A DNA stretch of 64,000 nucleotides from an uncultured virus (IMG/VR IMGVR_UViG_3300023176_002901) (IMGVR_UViG_3300023176_002901), one strand, 5' to 3'; positions 3,493 through 34,000 are shown, numbered from the stretch's first letter. Translations and numbers: made by a program. The notes: a model not told the origin generated them from the sequence alone.

Positions 3493-3832
3493 GTCTTACT
3501 GGTTTTACACGTTTACCCATACCCACCCGAGACTTCTCAGCCTTCTTCTTGGCGAGCGTTGAGCGAGACATCTCGCCCTTCGTTACTGGGGTCTTTGACG
3601 ACACACGCTTGCTAGGTCGGCAGTATTCATTCTTACCACCCCCGCCGCAGGGCTTACCCGTCCGGGTATCTACCCACTTCTCAGCAGTCCAGCGCTTTAG
3701 GCTCTTTCCCTCCTGCGTCTTACGCACACTGCCGCTAGCCTTGCGACATTTCGCAATAGCCTGACTGGCGCGAGCACTAGGGAATATCTTATACTGCGCC
3801 TTGACCTTAGTATAGCAAGCGTCTTTCGGCAT
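3482..3832 (-). CDS. Small basic protein (KDACYTKVK...LKRWTAEKWVD...YCRPSKRVS)
   Basis: 116 aa, K/R-rich, coupled to neighbours. Confidence 0.8.
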   Translation of the reverse strand: MPKDACYTKVKAQYKIFPSARASQAIAKCRKASGSVRKTQEGKSLKRWTAEKWVDTRTGKPCGGGGKNEYCRPSKRVSSKTPVTKGEMSRSTLAKKKAEKSRVGMGKRVKPVRRGK

Positions 3833-3933
3833 TACTTTTTCTTGCTGTACGGCTTAGACATAGGCTTACCGCCTCTGCTCTTATGCGTACATGGCATGTC
3901 TTTTTTCTTCTTCATGGTACAACCACAACTCAT
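3832..3933 (-). CDS. Basic micro-protein (33 aa, MSCGCTMKKKKD...)
   Basis: Hand-read; TAATG stop/start overlap with the next gene; promoter box at 3951-3958. Confidence 0.6.
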   Translation of the reverse strand: MSCGCTMKKKKDMPCTHKSRGGKPMSKPYSKKK

Positions 3934-4736: not shown

Positions 4737-4993
4737 CGTATCTCCCATAAAAAGTCCTCTACCCAGATGGGGGTTCTCTCTCCCATCCACGCGTTGAACG
4801 TATTAAACTCAAGGAACTCGGCGGCCTCTTCTTCGCCCATATCTCTAGCCATGATGGAGATGGCCTTACTGCGTGAGTACACAACGCGGAATGACACCGG
4901 GTCGATACCAATGATGGCGCCGTCTAGTCCGTCGGCGAACAGCAGGCCCTCGTCATCATGCCCGCCGTAGAACTCAACAATCAAGTCCTTCAT
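4733..4993 (-). CDS. Hypothetical acidic protein between groEL and groES
   Basis: 86 aa, 4-nt overlaps with both neighbours. Confidence 0.75.
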   Translation of the reverse strand: MKDLIVEFYGGHDDEGLLFADGLDGAIIGIDPVSFRVVYSRSKAISIMARDMGEEEAAEFLEFNTFNAWMGERTPIWVEDFLWEIR

Positions 4994-6594
4994 TTGTCCT
5001 CGTAGGTTCTAGCCAGCGTAACGATGGCGTTAGTACTCAGTATGGTCGTTGCCACACTCACGGCATTCTTCAGGGCGTTCTTAGTGACCTTCAGTGGGTC
5101 GATGACGCCCATCTTGTACATGTCTCCGTAGACGTTGTTCTTCACATCGTAGCCGTTGTTGTCGTCATCCGACACGTCGAACATAATCTCCGTAGCGTTG
5201 AGGCCGGCATTCTCGAGTATCTGCGTCAGCGGAGCCGATAGGGCATACGCCATTATGGAATACGCGATACGCTCCTCGCTGGAGAGCTCCGGGTTATGTG
5301 ACTGTATGTGGCAGGTGTCCGCCTCGCGCCATAGCGCCAGACCACCGCCGGGGAGTATCCCCTCCTCAAGAGCGGAGCGCACAGCACACACCGCGTCATC
5401 GACGCGGTCAAAAATCTCTTTCTGCTCGACGTCAGAGTTACCACCCACATATATGATACCGATACCTCCCGTCAGGCTAGCAATACGCTGCTTTATGAAG
5501 TCCCTATCACCGCGCTTGGTGGCAGCGTCGTGCGCTTCCCACAGCTCCTTCACTCGTGCGTTGATGTCGTCGCTCTGCCCTTCGTCGCGCACGATTACCG
5601 TGCTGTCCTTGCCGACGATGACCTTAGCGGCGTGGCCGAGGTCTTTCATCGTCACCAAACTTAGGTCATCGCCCATGCTCTCGCTTATGAACCGCCCGCC
5701 TACGCTCACAGCAATGTCACTCATCAGCTCGTGCTGCTTGTATCCGAACTGAGGGGGTGTGATGGTGCACATCTTAAGGCCGTTCTTCACAACGTTCGCC
5801 GCCAGCGTATTACCAACCTGCGTGCTACAGGGGCCTATGATGAGGAGCTTCTTACGGTCCGCCACAATAGGCTTCAGGACCGACTCCACCTGCAAGACGT
5901 TACTAATCTCGTGGTCTGTCAGTAGGATGTACACGTCCTCGAGGATACACTCATCCTTCTTCTGGTTGTTGACGAACAGCTTGTTGTCATAGCCGCGGTC
6001 AATCTTAATACCGTCCGTTACGTCGCAGTATGTGGCCTCGCTCATGCTCTTCTCCACCGTCACGAGCCCATTCTCTCCTACCTTATTGTAGGCCTCCGCT
6101 ATGATACCACCGATGACGGGGTCGTTATTGGCGGAGATGGCCGCCACATCCTTAATCTTACGTGCACCCACCCTACGCGAGCGCTTCTCAAGGGAGCCCA
6201 CCACGTCGTTGGCGATGCGCTGCACCTGCCGGATGACCTCCGTGCTGTTCACCTCGGGGGTGATGAGCGACATACCGCGTACAGCAATGGCCTCCGTCAG
6301 CACAATAGCCGTGGTGGTGCCGTCACCGGCGCTTGTCGCCGTCCTATCGGCGGCCTCCTTCATCATACGAACGGCTAGGTTCTCCACGGGGTCAATAAGG
6401 TCGATGCTCTTGGCAACAGTAACACCATCCTTAGTGACAGTAATCCCGTGGGTATGGTATTGGCTTTCTATCAGCACCGTCTTACCGCGAGGACCGAGGG
6501 TGCTCTTCACCGCCTTGGCGATTGTGGCGATGCCGTTGCCTAATCTGCGACGCGCATCGTCGTCGAACGTAAGGCTCTTTGGTGTGTAGTCCAT
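4990..6594 (-). CDS. groEL: Chaperonin GroEL
   Basis: TLGPRG, TKDGVTVAK, AGDGTTTA, EEGILPGGG and GVIDP motifs; no GGM tail. Confidence 0.97.
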   Translation of the reverse strand: MDYTPKSLTFDDDARRRLGNGIATIAKAVKSTLGPRGKTVLIESQYHTHGITVTKDGVTVAKSIDLIDPVENLAVRMMKEAADRTATSAGDGTTTAIVLTEAIAVRGMSLITPEVNSTEVIRQVQRIANDVVGSLEKRSRRVGARKIKDVAAISANNDPVIGGIIAEAYNKVGENGLVTVEKSMSEATYCDVTDGIKIDRGYDNKLFVNNQKKDECILEDVYILLTDHEISNVLQVESVLKPIVADRKKLLIIGPCSTQVGNTLAANVVKNGLKMCTITPPQFGYKQHELMSDIAVSVGGRFISESMGDDLSLVTMKDLGHAAKVIVGKDSTVIVRDEGQSDDINARVKELWEAHDAATKRGDRDFIKQRIASLTGGIGIIYVGGNSDVEQKEIFDRVDDAVCAVRSALEEGILPGGGLALWREADTCHIQSHNPELSSEERIAYSIMAYALSAPLTQILENAGLNATEIMFDVSDDDNNGYDVKNNVYGDMYKMGVIDPLKVTKNALKNAVSVATTILSTNAIVTLARTYEDK

Positions 6595-6616
6595 AATTTG
6601 ATTTGATTAGCTACCC

Positions 6617-6624
6617 CAAATATA
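6617..6624 (-). promoter_or_regulatory. -7 box (TATATTTG) upstream of groEL
   Basis: TAnnTTTG 22 nt before the ATG; another copy at 6815-6822 precedes the upstream ORF. Confidence 0.7.
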
Positions 6625-6625
6625 C

Positions 6626-6796
6626 TTAAAGGCCGTCGATATACCTAACCAAATCCTTAATGGAATGGTAGAACACCACGCCCCCCATCTCACCGTTGAA
6701 GTAGTCGTTGGAGTGCTCCCTCTTAAAGGCAGCCCACATCTTCGTATAGGGATTGTAGTGAAACAAGTAGTCCTGAAAGTGCTCCGAGTGTGCCAT
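6626..6796 (-). CDS. Small hypothetical protein (MAHSEHFQDYLFHYNPY...)
   Basis: ATG at 6796 follows the promoter box at 6815-6822. Confidence 0.7.
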   Translation of the reverse strand: MAHSEHFQDYLFHYNPYTKMWAAFKREHSNDYFNGEMGGVVFYHSIKDLVRYIDGL

Positions 6797-7065
6797 TGTA
6801 GTAGTATTATACCACAAATATACCATATCGACACAACACGTGTCGCGCGAATGCGCACTTTGTGTCAATATTGGAAATCATAACTGGCTCTTATTGTGTA
6901 AGTTAACTCACTCAATGACAGAAATGTCGTTTTTTGAGGGCTTTTCCCTATCTCTCTATATATATTTTACCTGAGAGATATATTTTTTTTTAATTAACTG
7001 CTCTAAAAATCGACATAAATGGAATATAAGAGATAACTATCTAGTTTCTAATTAGATAGCTAAAA

Positions 7066-7110
7066 CAAAATCGACACAAAATCGACACAAAATCGACACA
7101 GAGTGACACA
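7066..7110. repeat. Tandem 11-bp repeat CAAAATCGACA x3 plus a degenerate copy; origin-like
   Basis: Exact copies at 7066, 7077 and 7088; related copy near 7006; next to an AT-rich tract. Confidence 0.85.
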
Positions 7111-7165
7111 GTGCTGGACTCATAGGACTTATATGGGCATATTGAGTCTAGTAGTAACTCCTATG

Positions 7166-7193
7166 AAAATAGAAAGAGGGGACCGAAGTCCCC
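7166..7193 (-). terminator. Intrinsic terminator candidate
   Basis: GGGGAC-TTCG-GTCCCC hairpin on the - strand followed by a T-rich tract. Confidence 0.6.
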
Positions 7194-7219
7194 CCTAACC
7201 AGCAATCAATCATATCGTA

Positions 7220-7372
7220 TTACTTCATGGAGCGCATAGCCATAGCCTCCATCATAGCCTCAGCAGCCTCCTTCTTCATCTGCGCCATCTTCTTGTGACG
7301 AAGAGCAGACTGAATACCCGTCTCTCCGGGATTAATAGGACTGGAGTCTTGAATCATCTTTACCGTTTTCAT
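7220..7372 (-). CDS. Small Met/Ala-rich hypothetical protein (50 aa)
   Basis: Hand-read; ATGA overlap with the upstream ORF, followed by a terminator. Confidence 0.65.
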   Translation of the reverse strand: MKTVKMIQDSSPINPGETGIQSALRHKKMAQMKKEAAEAMMEAMAMRSMK

Positions 7373-7512
7373 AACCAGAGAAAATTAATACTTAACAAAC
7401 CAACATGCAACTGAAGCTCACTGTAGTCCGTCTCCTCGTCAACACCATAGTAAGCAAAGCCTACCAAGAATCCATTGCGAACACGGTTCTGAACCTGAAT
7501 CATCCACTGCAT
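7369..7512 (-). CDS. Small hypothetical protein (47 aa)
   Basis: Hand-read; TATATTTG box at 7516-7523 directly upstream. Confidence 0.6.
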   Translation of the reverse strand: MQWMIQVQNRVRNGFLVGFAYYGVDEETDYSELQLHVGLLSINFLWL

Positions 7513-7967
7513 ACACAAATATACGAATATCAGATGAGTGTAGTGTTTGGGTTATATGCCAGTATACGCGCCGTGCCCCGCGCCGGAAAGCGATTTTTTT
7601 TTCGAGGGGGGGGTCGCGATTTCAAAATTTCCTTGCGGATTTTTGGCGAATCCGTGTTTAAACATGCATCGACAAGGAATTAGATGTTTAAACAAATAAA
7701 TCGAGCATCGGAAATGCGTGTTCAAACAAACAATAATAAACTGCGCACGGGGGGAGCCGTCCTCCCACCGATAAAGAGAAAGCCGTCTCACCTTAGACTC
7801 TTTTCAACCGACCCGAGGAAAGAGAGGTCGGTTAGCCCCTCCCCCGACCTACATCTCCCTTAATTTCCGACAAACTATACTTTTCTGCGTTTTGTAACTC
7901 GCTGATATTCAGTGAGTTTGAAAGTCAGTTCAGCGTTTCATACGCAAAACTTTTTTAATATGCAATA

Positions 7968-8561
7968 GTTGGAAACCGAAACCTTCGTGAGTCCTTTGCA
8001 ATGTCCAACCGACATAGCATGGTCAACGAGCCATGAGGTTGGGGCGGAGATAGGCAACGAGACACTATAGTCCGCAACGCTCTTTGAAATAGCCCGAGGG
8101 GAGATAGCCACGAGGGATGACTGCTGAAGCCGTGAGGAGTACAAGTACCGAACGGAGGCGAGTGGGAGGTGTTCCCTCCTATGAGCCAAGACAATGACCA
8201 CCGCAGATGAGCGCACCATAGAGTGCGATGGTGAGCAATGGACACGAAAAGACACGAGGGAGGCAGTTGTCGCGGATGGGGAAATAGCCGAGGGATAGCG
8301 GTCAGCGATGAGAGGCAAAATTGAAAGCCTCTGCGATGTAGCCTTACATGGTAGAGATACCATAGATGCGAGAGTAGAGCATGGGACACCATGGTACTTG
8401 ATGGTAGCACGGGGTGAGCAGAGACAAGTAGGTAGGTGCCCGAGTTAGAAAAACCGACATAAAGGTCACATGATTGAGGTGGCGGTGCAGTAGGGGTGAA
8501 CCTACCGCATTGTCATTGGGGCGCATGGTGGTCATGAGGGGTTCGTTTCCCCTCCGCCCCA
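7968..8561 (+). ncRNA. Candidate large structured ncRNA (~600 nt), family unassigned
   Basis: No convincing ORF; many hairpins, some with GNRA loops; long-range helix GACAATG(8190-96)/CATTGTC(8508-14); ends in a tRNA-like element. Confidence 0.65.
8518..8561 (+). ncRNA. tRNA-like element 1 (acceptor + T arm, no anticodon arm)
   Basis: GGGGCG/CGCCCC stacked on GAGGGG-TTCGTTT-CCCCTC; linker contains TGG. Confidence 0.65.
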
Positions 8562-8578
8562 CTAAAAAACCAAGAACC

Positions 8579-8791
8579 ATGAAATACATTCCTTCCACGG
8601 ATGACCAATGGATAAAGTTGGTCACCACGAGCCGAAAGTCCTTCGGCAGAGCCTCCACGAGAGGCGCGAACTACCACGCCAAAGAGCGTGGTTTGGTGGT
8701 TAAGAAAAACCGCATTTCGGATGCTATCCGAGAGGCAATAACCGCCGACTATGAGAACACCCGTTTAGTATATGTGTGTCACGCTAAATAA
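8579..8791 (+). CDS. Early hypothetical protein (70 aa)
   Basis: ATG after an A-rich leader directly behind the tRNA-like element. Confidence 0.7.
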   Translation: MKYIPSTDDQWIKLVTTSRKSFGRASTRGANYHAKERGLVVKKNRISDAIREAITADYENTRLVYVCHAK

Positions 8792-8799
8792 TAGAAACC

Positions 8800-8928
8800 A
8801 TGACTATTGAAGCATTAATTCGTGAAGAGTTGGAACATGACTACTACGCCATGGAAACCAACCCAAGGGTCGACAAAGGCATCCTCCGCTTAATGGAGTG
8901 CGTCATTGAAGACATTCAGGTTAACTGA
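8800..8928 (+). CDS. Early micro-protein (42 aa); stop codon lies inside the hammerhead core
   Basis: Hand-read MTIEALIREELEHDYY...IQVN*; A-rich leader. Confidence 0.6.
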   Translation: MTIEALIREELEHDYYAMETNPRVDKGILRLMECVIEDIQVN

Positions 8929-8968
8929 CGAGGGTTCAGTACCCGAAACGCCGTGAGGCGTCTTAACC
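8919..8968 (+). ncRNA. Type I hammerhead ribozyme 1
   Basis: GGTTAA-CTGACGA-GGGT(TCAGT)ACCC-GAAA-CGCC(GTGA)GGCG-TC^TTAACC; full consensus core; predicted cut after C8962. Confidence 0.93.
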
Positions 8969-8983
8969 AAAAACCTTAATCTA

Positions 8984-9622
8984 ATGATTAATGACTTGAA
9001 AGAAATTCGCTTGGTACGAAACCTCCGAGCCGAATACAATCAGCGAGTGCTAAAGCAGTACCGCACCGAGAATTCTCTCATCACCACTCAAGAGACCCTC
9101 CAAGGGGATGTTTTCCTCTCGCACGAACAACGAGTTGGTGAGCGCAGAACGAGCACTCATTCTTACGGCTTTGAGGCGGACAACACTCGCAAGATGCACC
9201 TCCGCAGAACCAAAAACGCCGAGTTGATAGAGTTTAAGTTGGTGTGTGATATCATCACCATTGACTACAACTTTAGTGAAGAGCCTCGTTTCGTTACTAC
9301 GGAAATGTCCGAAGAGACGGCTCAACTCGCACCTCGTATGAAGGTCATTTACGGCACGAAGGAGGCGAAAGCCCTCCGAGATATGGCTCGTATGCAATAC
9401 ACCCTCAAAGACCTCTACAAGGGCAAAGAAACCCAAGGAATTGATGCCCTTGGTGCAATCAAGCCGGGCATCATCATTGACTGCCTCTCGGAATTGGTTG
9501 AACGAGCAGATGCTGTCTGCGAGTGGGGCACGATATGGGATGCTAAAGATGTTGCATACAAACTTGAGGAAAAGGTTGACTTCCAATTCAAGACGCCGAC
9601 CTTGAATTTCAACGCCAAATAA
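8984..9622 (+). CDS. Early hypothetical protein flanked by the two hammerheads
   Basis: 212-aa ORF, no recognisable motif. Confidence 0.8.
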   Translation: MINDLKEIRLVRNLRAEYNQRVLKQYRTENSLITTQETLQGDVFLSHEQRVGERRTSTHSYGFEADNTRKMHLRRTKNAELIEFKLVCDIITIDYNFSEEPRFVTTEMSEETAQLAPRMKVIYGTKEAKALRDMARMQYTLKDLYKGKETQGIDALGAIKPGIIIDCLSELVERADAVCEWGTIWDAKDVAYKLEEKVDFQFKTPTLNFNAK

Positions 9623-9627
9623 GCAAA

Positions 9628-9680
9628 GGTTAACTGACGAGTGCTTTAGTAGCCGAAACCGCCTCCGGGCGGTCTTAACC
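9628..9680 (+). ncRNA. Type I hammerhead ribozyme 2
   Basis: GGTTAA-CTGACGA-G[T]GCT(TTAGT)AGCC-GAAA-CCGCC(TCCG)GGCGG-TC^TTAACC; predicted cut after C9674. Confidence 0.92.
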
Positions 9681-24877: not shown

Positions 24878-24950
24878 GCGCCTTTAGCTCAGTGGTTAGA
24901 GCAGTGGACTCATAATCCATTGGTCGTAGGTTCAAATCCTTCAAGGCGCA
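24878..24950 (+). tRNA. tRNA with CAT anticodon, probably tRNA-Ile2 (lysidine) rather than Met
   Basis: Cloverleaf, loop CTCATAA, C4:G69 and C5:G68 pairs, discriminator A; one T-stem mismatch; CCA not encoded. Confidence 0.85.
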
Positions 24951-24954
24951 CACC

Positions 24955-25027
24955 GCCCCCATAGCTTAATGGATAGAGCAACGCACTTCTAATGCGTAGG
25001 TTGCTGGTTCGACTCCAGCTGGGGGTA
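24955..25027 (+). tRNA. tRNA-Arg(TCT)
   Basis: Cloverleaf with ACGCA-CTTCTAA-TGCGT anticodon arm; CCA not encoded. Confidence 0.92.
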
Positions 25028-25063: not shown

Positions 25064-28000
25064 CTACTCTCCAAGCATAGCCTTTCGGTACGCCTCAATC
25101 TCCTTATCGCTTTTCTTCTTATCTCCTCCTTCTATAACATAGTCAGAGTAGTTGAAGAGCCTGAGCAACGCCTCGCCCGGGTCCTTTGAATCGGGGATGG
25201 CTTCGATATTCTTAACCATCTTGTGGATGTTAGAAGCAGGGATGCCCGTCAGTTCTGTGATGTGATTAATCATTCTCCACATGTACTTATCCTTCTTCAC
25301 TGGGTCAGTAGCCTTGGTGAATGATTTGATATCCTTAAATACCAATCCAATCTGCTCGAATACAGGGAGCGTAGTAAATTCTCCAGCCCACGGAGCGCCA
25401 CTAACGAGGTCCTTGACTGCCGTAAGAATATCTCCAACAATAAACAAGGCGTTGAGGTTGCCAAGCAATGCCGCACGGCCAAGTGCCTGCTCATCCTCCT
25501 CATCCCAATCGGAAAGTAATCCGGGAAGGCCGAGGGCAACCCATTGGAACACCATAGGAACAAGGATGTGATATGTCACTACTCGTCTTGCGATATCACC
25601 ATATCCGTCCTGTGTTGGTAGACCCTTCATCTTTCTACTTAGGCTCATGAAGGCGCTCATCTCTCTGCGAAGCAACGCCTTTGGTGAAGATAAGAACACA
25701 TTCAAGAATCGGTATGCAGGGCCGCCAGTTTGGAACCAGTCCTTGTTGGTAATGCCACTATCTTGCTGCGTTCTGAGTGCCTGTTTAGTCGCCTTTTCGC
25801 TCGCATACTTCTGAGCCCCAGCCTCGTCACCGGGATTCTTCTCCAAGTACTGCTGCTTGTAGTACAAGTAGTTAGCAAGACCACCCATGATACCACCCTT
25901 GTCACCCTGCTTAACCAAGTACATGAGTGAGTTCATTAGGTTTCTCGTCTGCTCTTTTGTGACTGTAATATCCTTGCCACCTACCTTTTTATTTACAAGG
26001 ATTGGAGACTCATTGAGAGAACCCTCATAGCTGTATCCTTCTAGGATATCTCCAATGTTTGAGTTCTCATATCTCTCCTGAAACAGGGGCGAGTTAGCAT
26101 ACCACTCCTTCCATAGTTTGCGAGCCTGAGGAAGAGCGAGGGCAGTGTACTTACTCCAGTTTGTGTAGCCGATATAGTCAGCAAAGGCAAATGCAGAAGT
26201 GAGCTGCTTCAGGAATACCGTTGGGTTGATGGCAAGCTTAGACTTGATATACATACCCATCATAGCATTGGCAAGCTGAGATTCGTTTTGAGAGATTCCC
26301 TTTCTTGCAACCTTTTGCATCATGTCCTTCAGAGCGTCGTATGTATTCTTACCACCGAGCTCTATGATTGCTGCCTTTACGTTCGCATTGTCAAGAACCT
26401 TGCTCAGGTCTCTCATGGCCTCAGCATAGGCACGGAAGTATTCCATGTCTTTGAGGTATGAGTTGAGCACCGAGTTGCCATCGACACTTTGAATGGGACG
26501 AGAGTTCTTTACCCTCGCCTTGGTAGACTGGCCACCAACGCTGGTCTGGTATTCAGAAGAGCCGGCCAGTAAGTCGAACTGAAGGTCGCCCTCTTCGCCC
26601 TCTCTAAAAATTCTGCCTGCATAGAACTGATTCCATGGCATGTTGGTTCTATAGATGGCCTTGTATACCTCGTTGTATTTTTCATACAGGCTGGGATACA
26701 GCTCGTTAACCTGCCAGTCTGCCCACTCTTTTGTCTTGGCATCAAGTCTGTCGGTAATCTGCTGCATGATTCTAGCATACTGGTTCTTACCAAACTTCTT
26801 CTCAAAGGATGCCACATTAGCGGGGTCCTTGTATTGATTATACAAGTAGTAAGCTTGGTTATTACTGAGAACAACCTCAAGCTTTTCAAGCTGTCTAATT
26901 ATCTGCGCCTTACGTTTGTTGGTGGCAGAGTCGTATTCCTTCTTCAGCTCATTAGCCTTCTCCTCGTTAAGCCATATGACATTCTTGTCATTGATGAGGT
27001 CTTTACTCACAACAGGCACAGCATTACGCTGCATCTCAAGCTTGTAGTTATCGCCCCATATCTCCTTGGCTTTGTTGCTGATGATATCAAACACTTGTTT
27101 CTTGCCAGAGACAAAAGAAACTCGAGCCTTGAAGAGCCTGTCATCAAAGATTTCCATGAGCTTGTTGCCGCCCATGGCCTCAGACAGTCCGCTTGATATT
27201 CTTTGAAGCAATAGAGCGAGGTCCATTTGCTTGGTGAAGAACTCATCCACGCTGTTCTTTATCTTACCAACAAAGGACTTAATACCTCCATCAAAGGTCT
27301 TCCTTCTCTGCTCCTTGTTCTTAAGTTCTATAAGCTTCTCCTTGTTAGCCTCTTCACCCTCCTCGGAAAGGTCGAGCTCCTCACCCGTGATGCCATTGTA
27401 GGCGTCAGATATAAGATGCTCATAGTAAGCACGTTGAGCATCAATCTCTCCGCGCATCTGCGAGCGACCCGTAGATATAAGAGTACGGAGGTTGTCTCTC
27501 ACGGCAGCAAGGGCGTCTACCTTATGCGGGTTGTTATCCTCCATAAGCATCGCCTCGTTGTACATAAGAGCAATAGAGAGCGCGTTCATCTCGTCGCTCT
27601 CTTCCTGCGTCAGCGCGGTCTTTACAGACAGCTTATTGAATCTCTTCTCCTGCTTCTGCATTAGGTCCTCAATGTTCTGAGCAGACATACCCTCATCTAC
27701 GAGCATTGGGCTCTTCTTATTGGTAAGGGAACCAAGGATGTTCTGCAAGGACACGCTTACTCTGCCCACTCTACGACCCGATACCATTCTAGTGGTGGGG
27801 GTCTTCAGGAGTTTGTCAATAGCAGCACTTAGGTCACGCACATAGAACTCGTTGACGAATCCAGTGACGCGCTCCATCACTGCGGGCAGTGAGTCTGGAG
27901 TGGCGTCTGTGATAGCCTTCATCAGCTTGTTGACATCAGCCTTATTGAATACGGTCTTAGGCAAGTTCTTGCGGATGAACATGCGCATAGCGCGCTTAGC

Positions 28001-31000
28001 TTTTTCAAGTTCAGCCGCGCCCTTCTTCATGTTGGAAAGCATCGCACGCAACGCCTTGAAGTCCGCTTGGAACTTCTTGTTGGCGGCGGGGATGTTCAAT
28101 GCCTTGTCCAATCCAATCTGCATCTCCGCCTGAATGGTTGGGCTCTGCGCTTTAAAGAAATCAGAGTTAACCAACAGCTCCTGAGCCTTGGCTCTTACAT
28201 CCGCAGCGTTGTGTAGCAACACGCCCAATCTCTTGGCATTAGCATAGCGCTTAATCTTCTTGGTCAACTCGTTGAAGAACGCCTGACCCTGAGCAACACC
28301 GCCCTCCGCATTGGCGAAGCCATCGGGGAGCATAGTGCCCATCACATCGATAGGCACAGCGAGTGCTGACTTAATCTCGGTGGCGCTGTATCCCTGCTCC
28401 TTCAAGAAAGCAGCTATAACTCTATCGGTGTAGCCCCTCTCGCGCACATCATTGATGAACTCGTAGATGCTCTGCGTTCCGGCGCCATAGCCTTGGCGGC
28501 GTAGTGAGTTGGCGCTTCCGCCCCCGCCAATAACTCTAAGGAATGGGTTGAAGAACTTCCCATCCAGCGTCATGTGGTAACCGGAGACCTCACCGGTGCG
28601 CTCATCACGTCTAGGCTTTGTGCCGAGCCTGTCATCAAGCTTGCGCACAGCGATTCTAAACTGAGCGGGGTCGGTAGTAGCGGGAACAAATCCCTTATGG
28701 TTCATATTAAAGCGGTGACCTAGCTCCTGAGCCTGACTCTGAGGCTTAGCGCTCCAGTTCTGGTATGCAGTGGCGTCGCCCCTCTTCTGACGGATAGCGG
28801 GAGGTGGTTCAACGCCAGCCTCTGCCCTTAGGTATTCACCGTGGAGTCTCTGTATATCATTAAAGAGCTCTTGACTTATAAATCCGTCTTTAAGCTCTTT
28901 GCGTGCTAAAGAATATCTTTCTGGGTCAACGCTCTTAGCCAAGAGATTGCCAGAGCTTTCCAGATACACACTGCTAATAAATTCACCATGGTCATCCCCG
29001 GCTATTTCCTCAATACTTCCGAGCGATTTCACTCTACTTGAAGTTGAAAAAAACGAACCGCCAACCGTAACTAGATTTGATATGACAATGGGAGTCGAGC
29101 CGGGACCCTCTTCTGAGCCTTCCCAAATAAGTAGGCCTGAAGCAACAGTCTTGAGCTTTCCGGTATCCTTGAAATTTTCTGACGGCTTAAACTGTAACCC
29201 GCCACCCACATATTCAAGGTCGCCAAAAGAATCTACTTCTACATTAATGCTAACTTCTCCGGAGACGCTTCTTAAAGACCCAAGATTTATAGCGTGACCC
29301 GCGTAATCGTCTGACGCCGAAATGGTCAAATAATTTACAGTTTCTAAAGCCCCCAAGTCAAACCCTGAATCACCTAAGCGGACTCTAAGAGAACCGACAA
29401 TTTCTTTTAAGTGTGGACCAAGGGTTCTTAGTGTTTTATTGTCAGTTATTTGTAACGACCCTTCAAGTTTTTTTAATTTACCTAGGTCCCTCAGTCTTGA
29501 TTTCTCTCCTATCACAATTGGGCTTGACCTAACAATTTCCTCAAGTTCTCCAAAGCTTTCTAAAGTATCCGGAACCCCGTATTCAAAACGTCCAAGACGC
29601 TTCATCTTGCCAAGCGTTATTATTGAAGGCGGTAAATTTAAATCCCCTTCAACAACCTTCAACTCCCCAAGAGACATTAATTTTTGTGCATATGACAAAT
29701 CAAGATTGTCACCTACACGCTCTAATTTACCAAGAGACTCAAGCTGCCCTGCGCTATACAAGTTAACATTATCTTGGACAGTGGTTAAATTGCCAAGGCT
29801 TCTTATGTCGTTTACTATATGCACACCTTGGTCGACACTTGTTACTCCTATATGAAAATCTAAGGAGTTTTCTTGTATGAATAAATCACCGCCAACTAAC
29901 TCAATATTACCGGTGCTGTTTTTATCATATATGGTTGCGTCCCCTTCAACAGTTTTTAAATTAGCGGGGATGAGCTGTGACTGTTGGTTGTAATGTCCCG
30001 CGATGACCCTCAAGCTTTTAGCACTATTGGAGATAGCGTTTGAAACCATTCGGACGGCCCCCTCTTCGCCATACGCCTCAACGAGGCTTGCAAAAATGTC
30101 AAACGATGTAAAGCTCCCTCCCGAATAGAGCACTACATAGTCTGTAGCATGCGACACATAATCGGATGGGTCCTCGTTATTTATCGCTTCACCGAATAAC
30201 TCAAACACCCTAGCTTTTCCTTTTATCTCAAGCCTGCTGCCAATTTGCTTCCCATCTCTCATGGCCTCTATCGCCGCAGCTTTTAAGCCCATACGAATTA
30301 AATTGTCGCCATAAAAGTTTCCAATAAGAACCTCGGTCTCCGGGGTTAATTCTTCCATGCCTCGGGCAACTTTTCCTTTTATCTCAGGAGCAACATCGTT
30401 AGCATCAATCTTTAAATTAAAGTCCTCATTGAGTCGCTCGACGAAACCATTTCCCCCATACTGCATGAAGCTGTATCGGTTTGCTTCAGCAGTAAGGCTA
30501 GATACCGTTCTAAAGTCCTGCAAGGTTAAAGGGCGCTTCGATATCTCCTCCCTAAACATCCTTATCTTTTCGTTGAAGCGCTGCCCCTCTGCCCATTTCT
30601 CACCGCCCGGAACGGCGCCACTTTCCAAGAACTGCTCAGCTACAGGGCGCATCTTTGGCTCCATCTGTTGTCCTTCAAGGATACCTCGCACCTCTTCAAT
30701 GCTTCCTCTTCTTGTTCTTACGGCAATACGGGCTTTTGGCACGCCGCCTTTATCCGTTGTTACAAAGACATAGAAATCGCCGCCCCTAAGCTGCCCTTCG
30801 GCTCCGGTCTTTGTGCACCATGGCGTATCCTGAACAAGCTGACTTAAGGCGTCTGCGTTGTCATTAATATCTTGCTCACTAACACCGTCGCCACCGGGGA
30901 ACTTAAGCCACGTGCCCTCAGCGGTATCGTACATCTTAAATGCCTTAACAACATTGGGCGCGTTGGCCATCATCGTCTCAACGTATTCTTTTAATACTGC

Positions 31001-34000
31001 GTCTGATGATATGGTCTGCTCGCCAACCATTCTACTAATGGTGCCCTCGTCGTATGGCGTGTAGTTACGAAGAGTTTGGCGATTTCTCTTTTTGTAGCTC
31101 CCTGTTCTAGCGTCGTAGTTATGTGTGACGACAGCATCGAAAAGCATCAAGCGAATGGCGGGGGGTATACCGATTTCATGTTGTAGAAAGGCTGCCCATT
31201 TCTTTATAGTGTCATCTTGAGTGACTTGATATTCGTTTAGCACACGCATTCTGTGATAATCACTTTCTGCCTTCTCTTCAATTTCCGCAACCGTTTTCCT
31301 ACTGAGACCCATCCGGTCTGCTTCTTTTGCCTGACCAAGAATATCTTTGGTGATGTTATCGCCATCGTATATTTTAAGAAAGTCAATTATATAACTATCA
31401 GTTTGGTTAACCTGTGCGCCTATAGCAAACGCTATAGATTCTAGAAATCTATATACAGCCTGTGCTGGAGAGCTGCTTTTTGGGAATAGGCGGTTGGCCA
31501 ATAGGATGACAGCATTAACATCTTTGAGATTTGTTTTTTTAACGTCTGCCCTATTAACATCGGCGGATGTATCTGAATCAAATAATAGGCTATCTAAAAC
31601 CCTTTCAACAATGCCTTCGGCTCTACTCGCTTGAAGGATTTCTTCGCTGGTGGGCTCTACTCCATCTTTTTTATAGCCCATTGCCGTGAAAAAGCGACCG
31701 CTATCTTCAAGAACTGGAAGTATCTCCCCCAGCATCTTAATGGCTTCCTGCTGGTACTTCTCTTGGATACCAGCCTTCTGATACTTAATGCCTTCAGTCG
31801 GAGTGATGGTAATCAATCCCTTCTTCTGACGCATAGCGTTCTTAGTTTCAAGGGTCTGAGGTGAGCGCTTCATGCTTTGCGCACCATCATAAGCTACTCG
31901 AGTAACAGAGAATCCAAACTTCTCATAGAACTTAGTCAAGTCCTTGGCCATCTTTGCGAGCTTGGCTTCAGAATACTCTTTACGAGTTACCGGGTCTCCT
32001 TGATATCGCTTTGTTGGATACGCATCAAGTTTAATAGTCAGGCCAAGTTTATCGGCGGCTGCCGTAATACGATTCATTAACCTAGTGCCAGCTCCAGTTC
32101 CAGCAAGCCTTGGGTCAAATAATTCAATGCCATCTATGTATATAACATTACCCTCTTTAGGGCTGATACGTATGTTCATTTCAAGCTCCGGATTCTCAAC
32201 CGAAGTGTCCATAGTCATAAATCCACCCCGCATAATAATGCTTGGGAATATGTGGAAGTCTGGGTCGTTTGCCATTTCGGCAAACAAGTTGGCTACATTG
32301 TTGTAAGGCTGATAGAATTCTCTACGCCAATTGAAATCCTCATCCATGAAGTACACCCTCACTTCGTCCGCGGTAAGAGCATCATCGGTACTTGTTGGAT
32401 ATGGTTTTCTTCCCTTTCTGTTCAGGCTTTCACGAGCCTCCTCGTTGGTCATCGCCTTCTTCTGACGAAGTGCTGGCTTCTTGACCTTGATGTTCTCGAT
32501 AGCCATCTGCTGCTCTCCCGTAAGCTGAGCTGCTGGGAGGGCATCTTCTAGAGTAATGACCGTGGGCTCCTCAACTATATCGGTAGGAATCTCAGCGACA
32601 TACTGAGCGCCCATGGCGGAGCGTGCAGCCTGAGGCTTCGCTCTTTCTCCAATCTCTATCTGAGGACCGGTTACTGGCTTGGCCTTGGGATATACTTTGC
32701 GCACATCCACGGCCTTATCGAACACCATTATGGGTGTCCCCTCAATAACAAACGGATAAGAGGGGTGGGTATCCATTCCCTCCTTGCGGGTATCGATTAC
32801 CTTGCTGTCCTTATTGAACTGAATAGCAGATATAATATCTCCATATTGTACCTTCTCAAGAGATGGGTCGTTGACATAGTCAAGAACGCCCGTCTTCATC
32901 TTTGCCGTTGGCATCAATGGCGGTATCCCAAAGCGCTCATAAGAGGTGGCAGAGAAGAACGACTTAGTGAATGCACCACGAGTGTCATATGAGATTACTC
33001 CCTTGCCTTCAATGGGCATAAGGTCTCTCAGGTCTTCCAAGGTTTCTATTTGTCCCTTGTGTCCTTTCTTCTCTAGCTGTTCGGCAATAGTAACGCCGGG
33101 AGTTCTTGATGCTGTTCTAAGTTTGGCGTTGACATAGTCAATCAATTCCTGTGGAGACGCGCCCTTCATGACGGCGTTCTGAATTTCCGCCATTAGATAT
33201 TCATAAAAGGAAAGGCTACCAGCAATACCATCAGAAGCCTGAGACATCACCAATCCTACACCATCGCTCTCTTTTACTTTCTTTAGAATCTTGTTGGCTG
33301 CCGTCTCGCTAGTAAACGCCCAGCCCATACCGCTACCATAGGGGTATAGGTATCCACCCTTGAAGAAGTATCTCGTTCCAGATGGGCTCTCAATTTCACC
33401 ATAGGTTGCTTGGTCGGCTGCAAATACAAACGCATTAGCGCCCGACAAGTCGTTGATGCTACCGCGCTTGATAGCCTCTATGTCGATGCCACCTCGGTTA
33501 AGCTGCTGCTTGCGTGTGGCGTTTATGTTTATAGAATCTGAGCCCTTCTCATTAATGTTCTCAGCAACAGTGCCAGATGCGACTGTTGAGCCGGGCTCCG
33601 CAGCGCTATCAAGAACAACGAGGTCAGCCGCTACAATCGCCTTGCCTCTCGCAACCTTGCGGGCGAGGACGTCAAGCATAGCGGTTACGCTCTCGTCGGT
33701 TTTACCAAACTCAGAAGGAAGAGACACATTGAATGCTCTCGCCAATCGCTTAATAAACTCTACAATCTGTCCCTTAACCGTCGACGTTGCGTTGACGTAC
33801 TCTCTAGACAGCGCACCCATGAGCTGAGCGAGGCGCTCCTCATTCTGGAAGTTCTCGTCGTAGTTCTGTGCGAAGGCATCAATCTCTTTTGCTAGGGCAC
33901 TGTCATCCGCAAGAGTCTTGCGGACATTCTCCATCATGGTCTTGGCCACAGCCTGAGCCTTGGAGTCCGTTCTAACCTTGTTCAAGAATATAGCATGGAA

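What the first reader, a model, noticed from the sequence alone, without database searches (positions are those of the whole stretch)
7968..8561. Unassigned ~600-nt highly structured ncRNA candidate as the first early product
A purine-rich tract with no convincing ORF in an otherwise gene-dense genome. Visible helices: GTTGGA/TCCAAC (7968-8009), GGAGG/CCTCC (~8165), CGCAC/GTGCG (~8212), AGAGGC/GCCTCT (8311-8332), ATGGTA-GAGA-TACCAT (8348-8363), CATGG-GACA-CCATG (8380-8393), and long-range GACAATG/CATTGTC plus CACCGC/GCGGTG closing a ~320-nt domain. Size and phage context recall ROOL/GOLLD-class RNAs, but I cannot match it to either from memory.
Basis: partly seen in the sequence, partly recalled or inferred. 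Interest (0 to 1): 0.82.

Follow-up and report, generated by a model that had tools for sequence, protein, structure and literature searches.

The report
Conserved non-coding leader of phage early operon
A roughly 600-base stretch without genes at the head of a phage's early gene block is a conserved, hairpin-rich leader, most likely made as RNA, that matches no known RNA family and whose job is still unknown.

Summary
Short perfect hairpins are enriched: 11 against 2.6±1.6 in shuffles, 0 of 300 reaching 11. Whole-region folding energy is no better than that of neighbouring coding DNA.

Homologues are few: the same phage again, plus one sister clade (L048, L081, L087). In that clade the element differs at 8.9% of sites against 25.6% at four-fold sites of the adjacent ArdC gene, with no codon periodicity. 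Four hairpins recur in both clades with different stem sequences. One is a two-helix module with a CAACGA loop. G-U pairs favour the + strand RNA.

Rfam gives no match (ROOL and GOLLD models are part of that library), apart from a sub-threshold, non-conserved preQ1-I hit. Related phages lack the element, and the genes after it differ, so it is an accessory module of the leader.

Metatranscriptome contigs cover 7557-8631 at 2-4 times the flanking depth. This is weak evidence, because a terminal repeat would look the same.

The neighbouring early genes are separated by canonical type I hammerhead ribozymes.

Best reading: a protein-binding leader RNA (confidence 0.42).

The parts
7557..7967 (+). 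Upstream part of the non-coding leader. It holds a block (about 7510-7660) conserved in many related phages and a covarying hairpin followed by UUAGCCCC (7809-7845).
   Evidence: RNA-library contigs start at 7557 (X16) and 7607 (X15). The block matches 18 other loci in two nhmmer searches at E<=0.01. Hairpin sequences were compared.
7961..8000 (+). Hairpin P1 (UGCAA / UUGCA). It includes the invariant ATATGCAATAGTT block.
Evidence: The pairs are kept in window, L048, L081 and L087. L073 has GCAAG/CUUGC at the same place.
8005..8042 (+). Module A: outer helix CCAACC/GGTTGG, bulge GACATAG, inner helix CATGGT/GCCATG, hexaloop CAACGA, single A.
   Evidence: The same architecture with other stems occurs in L048 (CCGCC/GGCGG) and L081/L087 (CCGTAC/GTACGG, outer CCGC/GCGG). 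Of 15 IMG/VR matches to the unpaired-motif pattern, only the window's phage forms the stem.
8074..8099 (+). Conserved block 1 (GCAACGCTCTTTGAAATAGCCCGA).
   Evidence: Aligned with the L048 clade. A pattern scan of IMG/VR finds only the two contigs.
8151..8197 (+). Conserved core: AACGGAGGC, hairpin X (8162-8182, closed by GGC/GCC), then single-stranded CCAAGACAATGA.
   Evidence: The flanks are invariant in 4 of 4 sequences. The hairpin X stem differs (GTGGGAGG/CCTCCTAT against GTGTAGG/CCTACAC) but still pairs.
8199..8233 (+). Module B: CACC/GGTG outer helix, GCAGATGAG bulge, CGCAC/GTGCG inner helix, loop CATAGA.
   Evidence: It sits at the same position as the L081/L087 module, with a compensatory C-G to U-A change. 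It is absent from L048.
8311..8393 (+). Lineage-specific run of short hairpins (AGAGGC/GCCTCT, ATGTA/TACAT, ATGGTA-GAGA-TACCAT, CATGG-GACA-CCATG). They reuse CATGG/CCATG arms.
   Evidence: CATGGT occurs 4 times against 0.2 expected. No sequence homology with the L048 clade here.
8478..8517 (+). Long hairpin with a purine 5' arm, a pyrimidine 3' arm and G-U pairs. It is homologous to the 14-21 bp hairpin of the L048 clade.
Evidence: Fold z-scores are -2.4 (window), -5.6 (L048) and -7.0 (L081).
8532..8579 (+). T-arm-like hairpin GAGGGG-TTCGTTT-CCCCTC plus an A-rich tail before ATG 8579. It gives a sub-threshold preQ1-I riboswitch match.
   Evidence: 29.2 bits against a gathering score of 39, E 0.0017 for a 1.6-kb search. 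Not conserved in the L048 clade.
8579..8791 (+). First ORF after the leader (70 aa, no family).
   Evidence: It is not homologous to the first ORF of L073.
8919..8968 (+). Type I hammerhead ribozyme 1: stem I GGTTAA/TTAACC, core CTGACGA..GAAA, predicted cut after C8962.
   Evidence: All core positions and three stems are present.
9628..9680 (+). Type I hammerhead ribozyme 2, predicted cut after C9674. Stem II has one bulged base.
   Evidence: Read by eye against hammerhead 1. It is not caught by the strict descriptor.

Best explanation
The stretch is the variable, accessory part of a long untranslated leader RNA on the + strand. This leader opens the early operon of an uncultured podophage related to phages of Flavobacteriaceae.

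Shown:
- It is non-coding.
- It is constrained in sequence.
- It contains hairpins conserved by covariation.
- It carries repeated short single-stranded motifs.

Inferred:
- The RNA is made first on infection, from a start near 7557-7607.
- It is not tied to any one downstream gene.
- It works as a multivalent binding platform. One or two copies of the CAACGA-loop module, and 5 to 10 copies of a clade-specific UAG[G/C]C...(A)CGAG motif, would bind many copies of a protein. That protein could be a host RNA-binding factor or nuclease that is titrated, or a phage factor that is recruited to the early transcript.
- Downstream, the polycistronic RNA is cut into gene-length pieces by hammerhead ribozymes.
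For: Non-coding:
- The + strand ORFs are at most 46 aa.
- The minus-strand ORFs have no family and look like composition artefacts.
- Substitutions between L048 and L081 fall 12/19/14 over the three phases.
- The ORF from the conserved ATG is 34, 77, 87 and 29 aa in the four sequences. Its changes fall 2/8/6 by codon position.

Constraint:
- L048 and L081 differ at 45 of 505 aligned element sites (8.9%), and at 12 of 240 in the 3' part.
- They differ at 31 of 121 four-fold sites of the adjacent ArdC gene (25.6%), where codon positions give 7/6/60.
- L081 and L087 differ at 19 of 546 element sites, while their 2.5-kb alignment is 80% identical.

Structure:
- P1, hairpin X, module A/B and the long 3' hairpin occur in both clades with different stem sequences.
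- Within the L048 clade there is one compensatory pair and six G-C/G-U swaps in local hairpins, against two disruptions.
- The 21-bp L081 hairpin has eight G-U pairs, which would be C-A mismatches on the other strand.
- GNRA loops are present (GAGA, GGAA, GCGA changing to GCAA).
- Hairpins are enriched in the window.

Motif repeats:
- ATAGC occurs 5 times against 0.6 expected, and CGAGGG 4 against 0.3, in the window.
- GTAGGC occurs 4 times against 0.1, and CCAACG 4 against 0.3, in L048.

Autonomy:
- The genes after the element are not homologous in window, L048 and L073.

RNA:
- Metatranscriptome contigs give depth 12.6 over 7557-8631 against 2.5-4.4 beside it (X16).
- In X15 the depth is 8.4-11.2 against 3.3-5.4.
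Against: - Only four distinct sequences in two clades exist, so no statistical covariation test is possible.
- Global MFE is no better than that of coding DNA.
- The L048 element shows no hairpin enrichment: 5 against 3.0.
- L048 itself has an A-A mismatch in hairpin X.
- The 3' halves of the two clades align at about chance level: 117 of 200 sites differ.
- The element is missing from L073, from the 80 hammerhead-bearing loci fetched with their flanks (apart from L144 and L145, the window's own phage) and from MW202828.1.
- No binding partner is known.
- The RNA-library contigs may contain DNA, and a collapsed terminal repeat would also double the depth.
- Low divergence could reflect recent recombination, since the gene order around the element differs between L048 and L081.
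Confidence: 0.42

Rival explanations
1. The element works at the DNA level, in the genome-end region. The unidirectional short repeats would be protein-binding sites (iteron-like, packaging or ejection signals), or the stretch would be part of a direct terminal repeat. Transcription would be incidental.
For: - It lies at the junction of the leftward late genes and the rightward early genes, in a 2-kb non-coding region.
- It has repeated direct motifs.
- A conserved block with T9 and G8 runs lies upstream.
- The depth over 7557-8631 is about 2-fold above the flanks in X15, as a collapsed terminal repeat would give in DNA-contaminated libraries.
- Recalled, not tested: T7 has arrays of short repeats next to its terminal repeat.
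Against: - The hairpins depend on G-U pairs that exist only in + strand RNA.
- GNRA loops are kept as GNRA.
- The motif copies differ by internal one- or two-base insertions, which DNA-binding sites tolerate badly.
- The X16 depth ratio is about 3-4, not 2.
- The right limit, 8631, would fall inside an ORF.
Confidence: 0.15
2. It is an ordinary cis-acting 5' UTR of the first gene. It would control that gene's translation or stability, for example through a riboswitch such as the preQ1-like hairpin at 8532-8579.
For: - It is contiguous with ORF 8579, with no ribozyme between them.
- There is a preQ1-I match of 29.2 bits directly before the ATG.
Against: - The first genes differ between the phages that share the element.
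- The preQ1-like part is below the gathering score of 39 and is absent from the L048 clade.
- 600 nt is far longer than such regulators need.
Confidence: 0.1
3. It is a spacer with no function of its own. It would have been built by duplication and decay of short hairpin units, possibly old hammerhead copies, and would look conserved only because the lineages exchanged it recently.
For: - The CATGG/CCATG arms are reused.
- Whole hairpin blocks are gained and lost between direct repeats: indels of 83 and 30 nt.
- Positions 8110-8140 resemble hammerhead 1 (ACGAGGG...GAA..GCCGTGAGG).
- Some relatives carry three hammerheads in tandem after the leader (L119).
- The element is absent from relatives.
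- Gene order around it is shuffled.
Against: - The hammerhead resemblance is not significant: 32 of 500 shuffles score as well.
- Divergence is 3 to 4 times lower than at four-fold sites of the flanking gene in two independent pairs.
- The conserved unpaired motifs (GACATAG, CAACGA, CCAAGACAATGA) persist across clades that are about 50% diverged elsewhere.
Confidence: 0.18
4. It encodes one or more small proteins, for example from the conserved ATG within CCAAGACAATGA, whose context resembles that of ATG 8579.
For: - The ATG is invariant in 4 of 4 sequences.
- The upstream CCAAGA resembles the CCAAGAACC before ATG 8579.
- The 30-nt indel between L048 and L081 keeps the frame.
Against: - The products are 34, 77, 87 and 29 aa, and the window's bears no resemblance to the others.
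- L087 is truncated by a 1-nt deletion.
- Changes fall 2/8/6 by codon position.
Confidence: 0.05

Closest known systems
ROOL and GOLLD large phage-associated RNAs
   Same: Several hundred nucleotides, phage-borne, many hairpins including GNRA loops, no known function from sequence.
   Different: No match to any Rfam model, at gathering score or at E<=10. That ROOL and GOLLD are in Rfam is recalled, not checked. There is no conserved multi-domain architecture. Only four sequences are known. The element is part of an mRNA leader rather than a separate gene.
Sponge RNAs with repeated protein-binding motifs (CsrB/RsmZ type; recalled)
   Same: Many copies of a short purine-rich motif, some in hairpin loops, on one untranslated RNA.
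   Different: The motif here is UAG[G/C]C...CGAG or CAACGA, not A(N)GGA. No partner protein is known. No titration has been shown. GGA counts cannot be told apart from the base composition.
Untranslated early leaders of podophages that are cut off by RNA processing (the T7 A1 to R0.3 leader, cut by RNase III; recalled)
   Same: A non-coding stretch of hundreds of bases between the genome end or early promoters and the first early gene. Downstream, the polycistronic RNA is processed between genes.
   Different: Processing here is by hammerhead ribozymes, not RNase III. In the window no cut site separates the leader from the first ORF, although L126 and L119 have a hammerhead directly after their leaders.
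Hammerhead ribozymes that flank genes in phage and prophage transcripts (Perreault et al. 2011, PMC3088659; passages read)
   Same: The neighbouring elements at 8919-8968 and 9628-9680 have the full catalytic core and three stems. They flank single genes, including an anti-restriction gene, as that paper describes for ardA in Agrobacterium tumefaciens.
   Different: These belong to the context, not to the finding itself. The 600-nt element contains no intact hammerhead core.
preQ1-I riboswitch (RF00522)
   Same: A hairpin plus an A-rich tail directly before a start codon (8532-8579).
   Different: Score 29.2 against a gathering score of 39. The first stem pair is A-A. Not conserved in the homologues.

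Membership tests
ROOL / GOLLD (Rfam covariance models) | A match to the family's covariance model (sequence plus structure). | tested here: not met
   No hit at gathering score in the 64-kb window. No hit at E<=10 in 7400-9000 or 7940-8300. No hit at E<=1 in L048, L081, L087 or L073.
preQ1-I riboswitch | Score at or above Rfam's gathering score. | tested here: not met
   29.2 bits against 39.
preQ1-I riboswitch | Conservation of the aptamer in homologous leaders. | tested here: not met
   The L048 clade has unrelated sequence before its first ORF and gives no hit.
preQ1-I riboswitch | Ligand binding and association with queuosine genes. | not testable with these tools
   The downstream ORF (70 aa) has no family.
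Hammerhead ribozyme, type I (neighbouring elements at 8919-8968 and 9628-9680) | Catalytic core C3 U4 G5 A6 N7 G8 A9 ... G12 A13 A14 ... A15.1-U16.1, H17. | tested here: met
   CTGACGA, GAA, A...T and C are all present at both sites.
Hammerhead ribozyme, type I (neighbouring elements at 8919-8968 and 9628-9680) | Three stems, with II and III capped and I open, supported by covariation. | tested here: met
   A descriptor requiring all three stems finds 198 sites in 130 of the sources searched (the window and all stored loci), with 151 distinct sequences.
Hammerhead ribozyme, type I (neighbouring elements at 8919-8968 and 9628-9680) | A match to the Rfam hammerhead models. | tested here: not met
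   No hit at E<=10 even in a 111-base search of 8890-9000. The reason was not determined; the short 6-bp stem I is a guess.
Hammerhead ribozyme, type I (neighbouring elements at 8919-8968 and 9628-9680) | Self-cleavage. | not testable with these tools
   The RNA data are contigs, which cannot show ends.
Type III toxin-antitoxin antitoxin RNA (ToxI-like) | Tandem array of near-identical repeats of about 34-45 nt. | tested here: not met
   Tandem Repeats Finder reports 0 arrays in 7400-9000 at score >=30.
RNA anti-CRISPR (solitary CRISPR-repeat mimic) | Near-identity to a CRISPR repeat of a host genome. | tested here: inconclusive
   A 20-mer from 7968-7987 has 1 exact match among the species-representative genomes. 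It is a single copy with no array. Only one exact 20-mer was tried. No Rfam CRISPR-DR hit.
Protein-coding gene | A conserved open frame with third-position bias. | tested here: not met

The most novel reading that the evidence does not exclude
A new family of large phage RNAs. A 0.6-1 kb structured leader would be the first molecule made on infection by podophages of Flavobacteriia. Through its CAACGA-loop modules and arrays of clade-specific UAG[G/C]C motifs, it would soak up a host RNA-binding defence or regulatory protein. Bacteroidota lack Hfq and ProQ (recalled). The motif would then co-evolve with that target.
Probability: 0.15. Interest if true: 0.7.

Novelty: new member of a known kind. 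Interest (0 to 1): 0.42.

Why it matters
Almost nothing is known about non-coding RNAs of phages that infect marine and marsh Flavobacteriia.

If the leader is a functional RNA, it would be an RNA made before any phage protein. It would sit in an operon that is then cut up by ribozymes. That makes it a compact system for studying RNA-only steps of host takeover.

Three features point to a binding partner that could be fished out with the RNA as bait:
- the sequence constraint;
- the recurrent two-helix module;
- the clade-specific repeated motif.

If instead it is a terminal-repeat or spacer feature, the finding is ordinary.

Tried and rejected
- **Rfam, four ways.** Only two tRNAs elsewhere, a sub-threshold preQ1-I hit and noise (box C/D sRNAs, tmRNA fragments).
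- **INPHARED phages by blastn, with the window's and L081's element.** No match.
- **The nearest held virus record, G001.** It is a 44-kb fragment without the region.
- **The closest deposited genome, MW202828.1.** It has neither the element nor the hammerhead pattern.
- **Homologue hunts:**
  - via the 212-aa neighbour: the window's own phage only;
  - via ArdC: 68 loci, of which only the window's phage and L048 carry the element;
  - core pattern in IMG/VR: 2 hits;
  - core pattern in metagenomes: 26 stretches, of which 3 are real (L081, L087, L095) and 23 have no BLAST similarity to the element;
  - block-1 pattern: 2 hits;
  - module pattern: 15 hits, 14 of them chance matches without a stem.
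- **Tandem repeats.** None.
- **CRISPR-repeat mimicry.** One chance hit.
- **Hammerhead-relic origin.** p about 0.06, so not established.
- **Minus-strand ORFs of 141 and 151 aa.** No family; low-complexity products of a pyrimidine-rich strand.
- **N4-like assignment, my first guess from the 3796-aa ORF.** Dropped: that ORF has no PHROG or Pfam match, and the portal points to Flavobacterium and Cellulophaga podophages.
- **Sigma-70 promoter scan.** Nothing upstream of 7968. The promoter was not identified.
- **The perfect 10-nt long-range pair 8040-8049/8552-8561.** Present only in the window, and roughly 0.2 such pairs are expected by chance (my estimate).
- **RNA-library parts without cover, and the small-share runs X17 and X18.** No conclusion drawn.
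- **First MFE control script.** It was repeated with fewer shuffles.

Full report
**What is in the sequence**

Window 7968-8578 lies inside a 2-kb stretch without credible genes (6594-8579). This stretch sits between a leftward block (a GroEL-like gene at 4990-6594, tail genes further left) and a rightward block that begins with small ORFs and an ArdC-like anti-restriction gene.

On the + strand the longest ORFs inside the stretch are 33, 34 and 46 aa. The composition is A .286, G .324, C .213, T .177. Purine skews peak at 8100-8500.

**Is it more than chance?**

The answer is mixed.

- Perfect hairpins (stem >=5, loop 3-9) number 11, against 2.6±1.6 in dinucleotide shuffles. None of 300 shuffles reaches 11. 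Four coding controls gave 5, 7, 7 and 2.
- The whole-region folding energy is not special. Its z-score is -2.9 with 40 shuffles, against -3.6 and -3.6 for two adjacent coding stretches. The tool's own figure was -4.15 with 20 shuffles for the + strand and -2.39 for the minus strand.
- The homologous element of L048 has z -1.2, against -1.7 for its coding control. It shows no hairpin excess: 5 against 3.0.

**Known families**

- Rfam at gathering score finds only two tRNAs at 24878-25027.
- Permissive scans of the region and of the homologues find nothing relevant. The one exception is a preQ1-I match at 8532-8579: 29.2 bits against a gathering score of 39, with a first stem pair of A-A. The sister clade lacks it. 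I treat it as a probable chance hit.

**The phage**

- The 3796-aa ORF matches no PHROG or Pfam family, so I dropped my first guess of an N4-like phage.
- The portal's relatives are podophages of Flavobacterium (68 records), Cellulophaga (15), Tenacibaculum (2) and Maribacter (1). The best hit is an uncultured genome, MW202828.1, at 72.6%.
- Start codons are preceded by A/T-rich sequence without Shine-Dalgarno motifs (read by eye). This fits a Bacteroidota host; that link is recalled knowledge.

**Homologues**

The element is rare.

- ArdC-anchored loci: of 68, only the window's own phage and L048 carry it (nhmmer E 3e-7).
- Pattern scans of IMG/VR with conserved blocks return only those two contigs.
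- A scan of 241 million metagenome records returned 26 stretches. L095 is identical to the window. L081 and L087 are relatives of L048. The other 23 have no similarity to the element.
- Relatives that lack it:
  - L073 shares the upstream leader and hairpin P1 but runs into an ORF after about 70 nt.
  - 80 loci fetched through the hammerhead pattern lack it, apart from L144 and L145, which are the window's own phage.
  - MW202828.1 lacks it.
  - INPHARED has no blastn match.

**Coding or not**

It is not protein-coding.

- The minus-strand ORFs are artefacts of a pyrimidine-rich strand.
- Substitutions between L048 and L081 fall 12/19/14 over the three phases.
- An invariant ATG within CCAAGACAATGA opens frames of 34, 77, 87 and 29 aa in the four sequences. 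The products are unrelated or frameshifted, and changes fall 2/8/6 by codon position.

**Constraint**

| Comparison | Sites differing |
|---|---|
| L048 vs L081, ArdC, by codon position | 7 / 6 / 60 |
| L048 vs L081, ArdC four-fold sites | 31 of 121 (25.6%) |
| L048 vs L081, whole element | 45 of 505 (8.9%) |
| L048 vs L081, element 5' core | 19 of 222 |
| L048 vs L081, element 3' part | 12 of 240 |
| L081 vs L087, element | 19 of 546 (3.5%) |

The overall 2.5-kb alignment of L081 and L087 is 80% identical. Indels come as whole blocks of 83, 30 and 11 nt.

Between the window and the L048 clade, only the 5' core is clearly homologous (104 of 222 sites differ). The 3' part aligns near chance (117 of 200 differ), except for one hairpin described below.

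Recent exchange of the element between lineages cannot be excluded, because the gene order around it differs between L048 and L081.

**Structure shared by the two clades**

1. **P1.** UGCAA/UUGCA at 7961-8000 is invariant in the four sequences. L073 has GCAAG/CUUGC.
2. **A two-helix module.** It consists of an outer helix, a 7-9-nt bulge (GACAUAG), an inner helix, a hexaloop (CAACGA) and a single A.
   - The window has two copies: A at 8005-8042 and B at 8199-8233, the latter with degenerate loops.
   - L048 has only A. L081 and L087 have only B.
   - Inner stems are CAUGGU/GCCAUG, CGCAC/GUGCG, CCGCC/GGCGG and CCGUAC/GUACGG.
   - A scan of IMG/VR for the unpaired motifs alone gave 15 stretches. 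Only the window's phage forms the stem (6 pairs); the other 14 form 0-1 pairs.
3. **Hairpin X.** It lies between the invariant AACGGAGGC and GCCAAGACAAUGA. The stems are GUGGGAGG/CCUCCUAU and GUGUAGG/CCUACAC. L048 has one A-A mismatch.
4. **A long hairpin with a purine 5' arm and a pyrimidine 3' arm.** It is at window 8478-8517; L048 has 14 bp and L081 has 21 bp with eight G-U pairs.
   - Fold z-scores are -2.4, -5.6 and -7.0.
   - Its apex differs by paired insertions.
   - Three G-C/G-U swaps keep it intact.

The G-U pairs and the GNRA loops (GAGA, GGAA, and GCGA changing to GCAA) argue for selection on the + strand RNA rather than on DNA.

GCGGTG and CATTGTC are the two arms of hairpin 4, and the sister clade has no partner for GACAAUG. 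His first helix (GTTGGA/TCCAAC) crosses P1 and competes with the outer helix of module A.

**Repeated motifs**

- Window: ATAGC occurs 5 times (0.6 expected), CGAGGG 4 times (0.3) and CATGGT 4 times (0.2).
- L048: GTAGGC occurs 4 times (0.1) and CCAACG 4 times (0.3).

Read together, these are copies of one unit, R-UAG-[G/C]C-(A)(A)CGAG, all in the same direction and irregularly spaced. Each clade has its own variant. There are no tandem repeats.

**Expression**

Four salt-marsh metatranscriptomes hold parts of the region as contigs.

| Run | Stretch | Depth | Neighbouring depth |
|---|---|---|---|
| X16 | 7557-8631 (one contig) | 12.6 | 2.5-4.4 |
| X15 | 7607-7859 | 8.4 | 3.3-5.4 |
| X15 | 7875-8310 | 11.2 | 3.3-5.4 |

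It is weak evidence, for three reasons. Contigs carry one depth figure each. The libraries may contain DNA. A collapsed terminal repeat would also raise the depth.

**Context**

- The early genes are separated by canonical type I hammerhead ribozymes at 8919-8968 and 9628-9680.
- A descriptor that demands the full core and all three stems finds 198 sites in 130 of the sources searched, with 151 distinct sequences.
- Rfam's hammerhead models nevertheless do not report them.
- Such gene-flanking hammerheads in phage transcripts, including around an anti-restriction gene, were described by Perreault et al. 2011 (PMC3088659; passages read).
- In L126 and L119, a hammerhead directly follows ORF-poor leaders of 1,026 and 660 nt. 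In those phages the leader would be cut free.
- In the window, no ribozyme separates the leader from ORF 8579.
- The genes behind the element are not homologous in window, L048 and L073. The element therefore belongs to the operon's head, not to a particular gene.

**Reading**

Most likely (0.42), the stretch is the accessory part of a long + strand leader RNA. Its conserved hairpins and repeated single-stranded motifs would bind many copies of a protein, either titrating a host factor or recruiting a phage one.

- Shown: it is non-coding, its sequence is constrained, its hairpins covary, and it carries repeated motifs.
- Inferred: it is transcribed as a discrete abundant RNA, and it binds a protein.

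The rivals are:
- a DNA-level genome-end element or terminal repeat (0.15);
- a spacer built from decayed hairpin or hammerhead units (0.18); the resemblance of 8110-8140 to hammerhead 1 is matched by 32 of 500 shuffles;
- a gene-specific 5' UTR (0.10);
- small peptides (0.05).

**Novelty**

This is a new, small family within a known kind: untranslated, structured leaders and non-coding RNAs of phage early operons. It is not a member of ROOL, GOLLD or any other Rfam family.

The constraint, the recurrent module and the ribozyme-processed context still make the element worth an experiment.

Noticed in passing
window 8919-8968 and 9628-9680; also L073 and many of the stored IMG/VR loci: Canonical type I hammerhead ribozymes (stem I GGTTAA/TTAACC) sit 13-22 nt before early-gene start codons. 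A strict descriptor finds 198 sites and 151 distinct sequences in the loci held. Rfam's hammerhead models do not report them, even at E<=10.
   Followed up: partly
window 8532-8579: Sub-threshold preQ1-I riboswitch match (29.2 bits against 39) on a T-arm-like hairpin plus an A-rich tail directly before ATG 8579. It is not conserved in the sister clade.
   Followed up: partly
window about 7510-7660: A block with T9 and G8 runs (GATTTTTTTTTCGAGGGGGGGGTC) and flanking motifs. In two nhmmer searches it matches 18 related loci besides the element-bearing ones. It could be a promoter, a genome end or a packaging signal. RNA-library contigs begin just inside it.
   Followed up: partly
window 7809-7850; L048 3227-3256; L073 about 5400-5435 (minus strand): A three-part arrangement, CCGACC / GGTCGG / CCGACC (CGCCC / GGGCGG / CCGCCC in L048), around a conserved UUAGCCCC. 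The middle arm can pair either way, like a switch. L073 keeps only the upstream pairing.
   Followed up: no
L048 4285-5967 against L081 (minus strand) 620-2275: The 212-aa ORF and the ArdC gene stand in opposite order in the two relatives. This suggests that the hammerhead-flanked genes are shuffled as cassettes.
   Followed up: no
window 25064-36454 (minus strand): A 3796-aa ORF with no PHROG or Pfam match. It lies beside the virion genes, and two tRNA genes (24878-25027) sit next to it.
   Followed up: partly
window 4990-6594 (minus strand): A phage-encoded GroEL-like chaperonin (phrog_5725, E 3e-135). It is transcribed away from the leader.
   Followed up: no
window 8186-8298: The invariant CCAAGACAATGA contains an ATG whose context resembles that of the first real ORF. 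It opens short, non-conserved frames of 34, 77, 87 and 29 aa in the four sequences, so it may be a start site for a sequence-independent upstream ORF.
   Followed up: partly
L119 (minus strand) 3501-3899: Three hammerheads in tandem within 400 nt, directly after a 660-nt ORF-poor leader.
   Followed up: no
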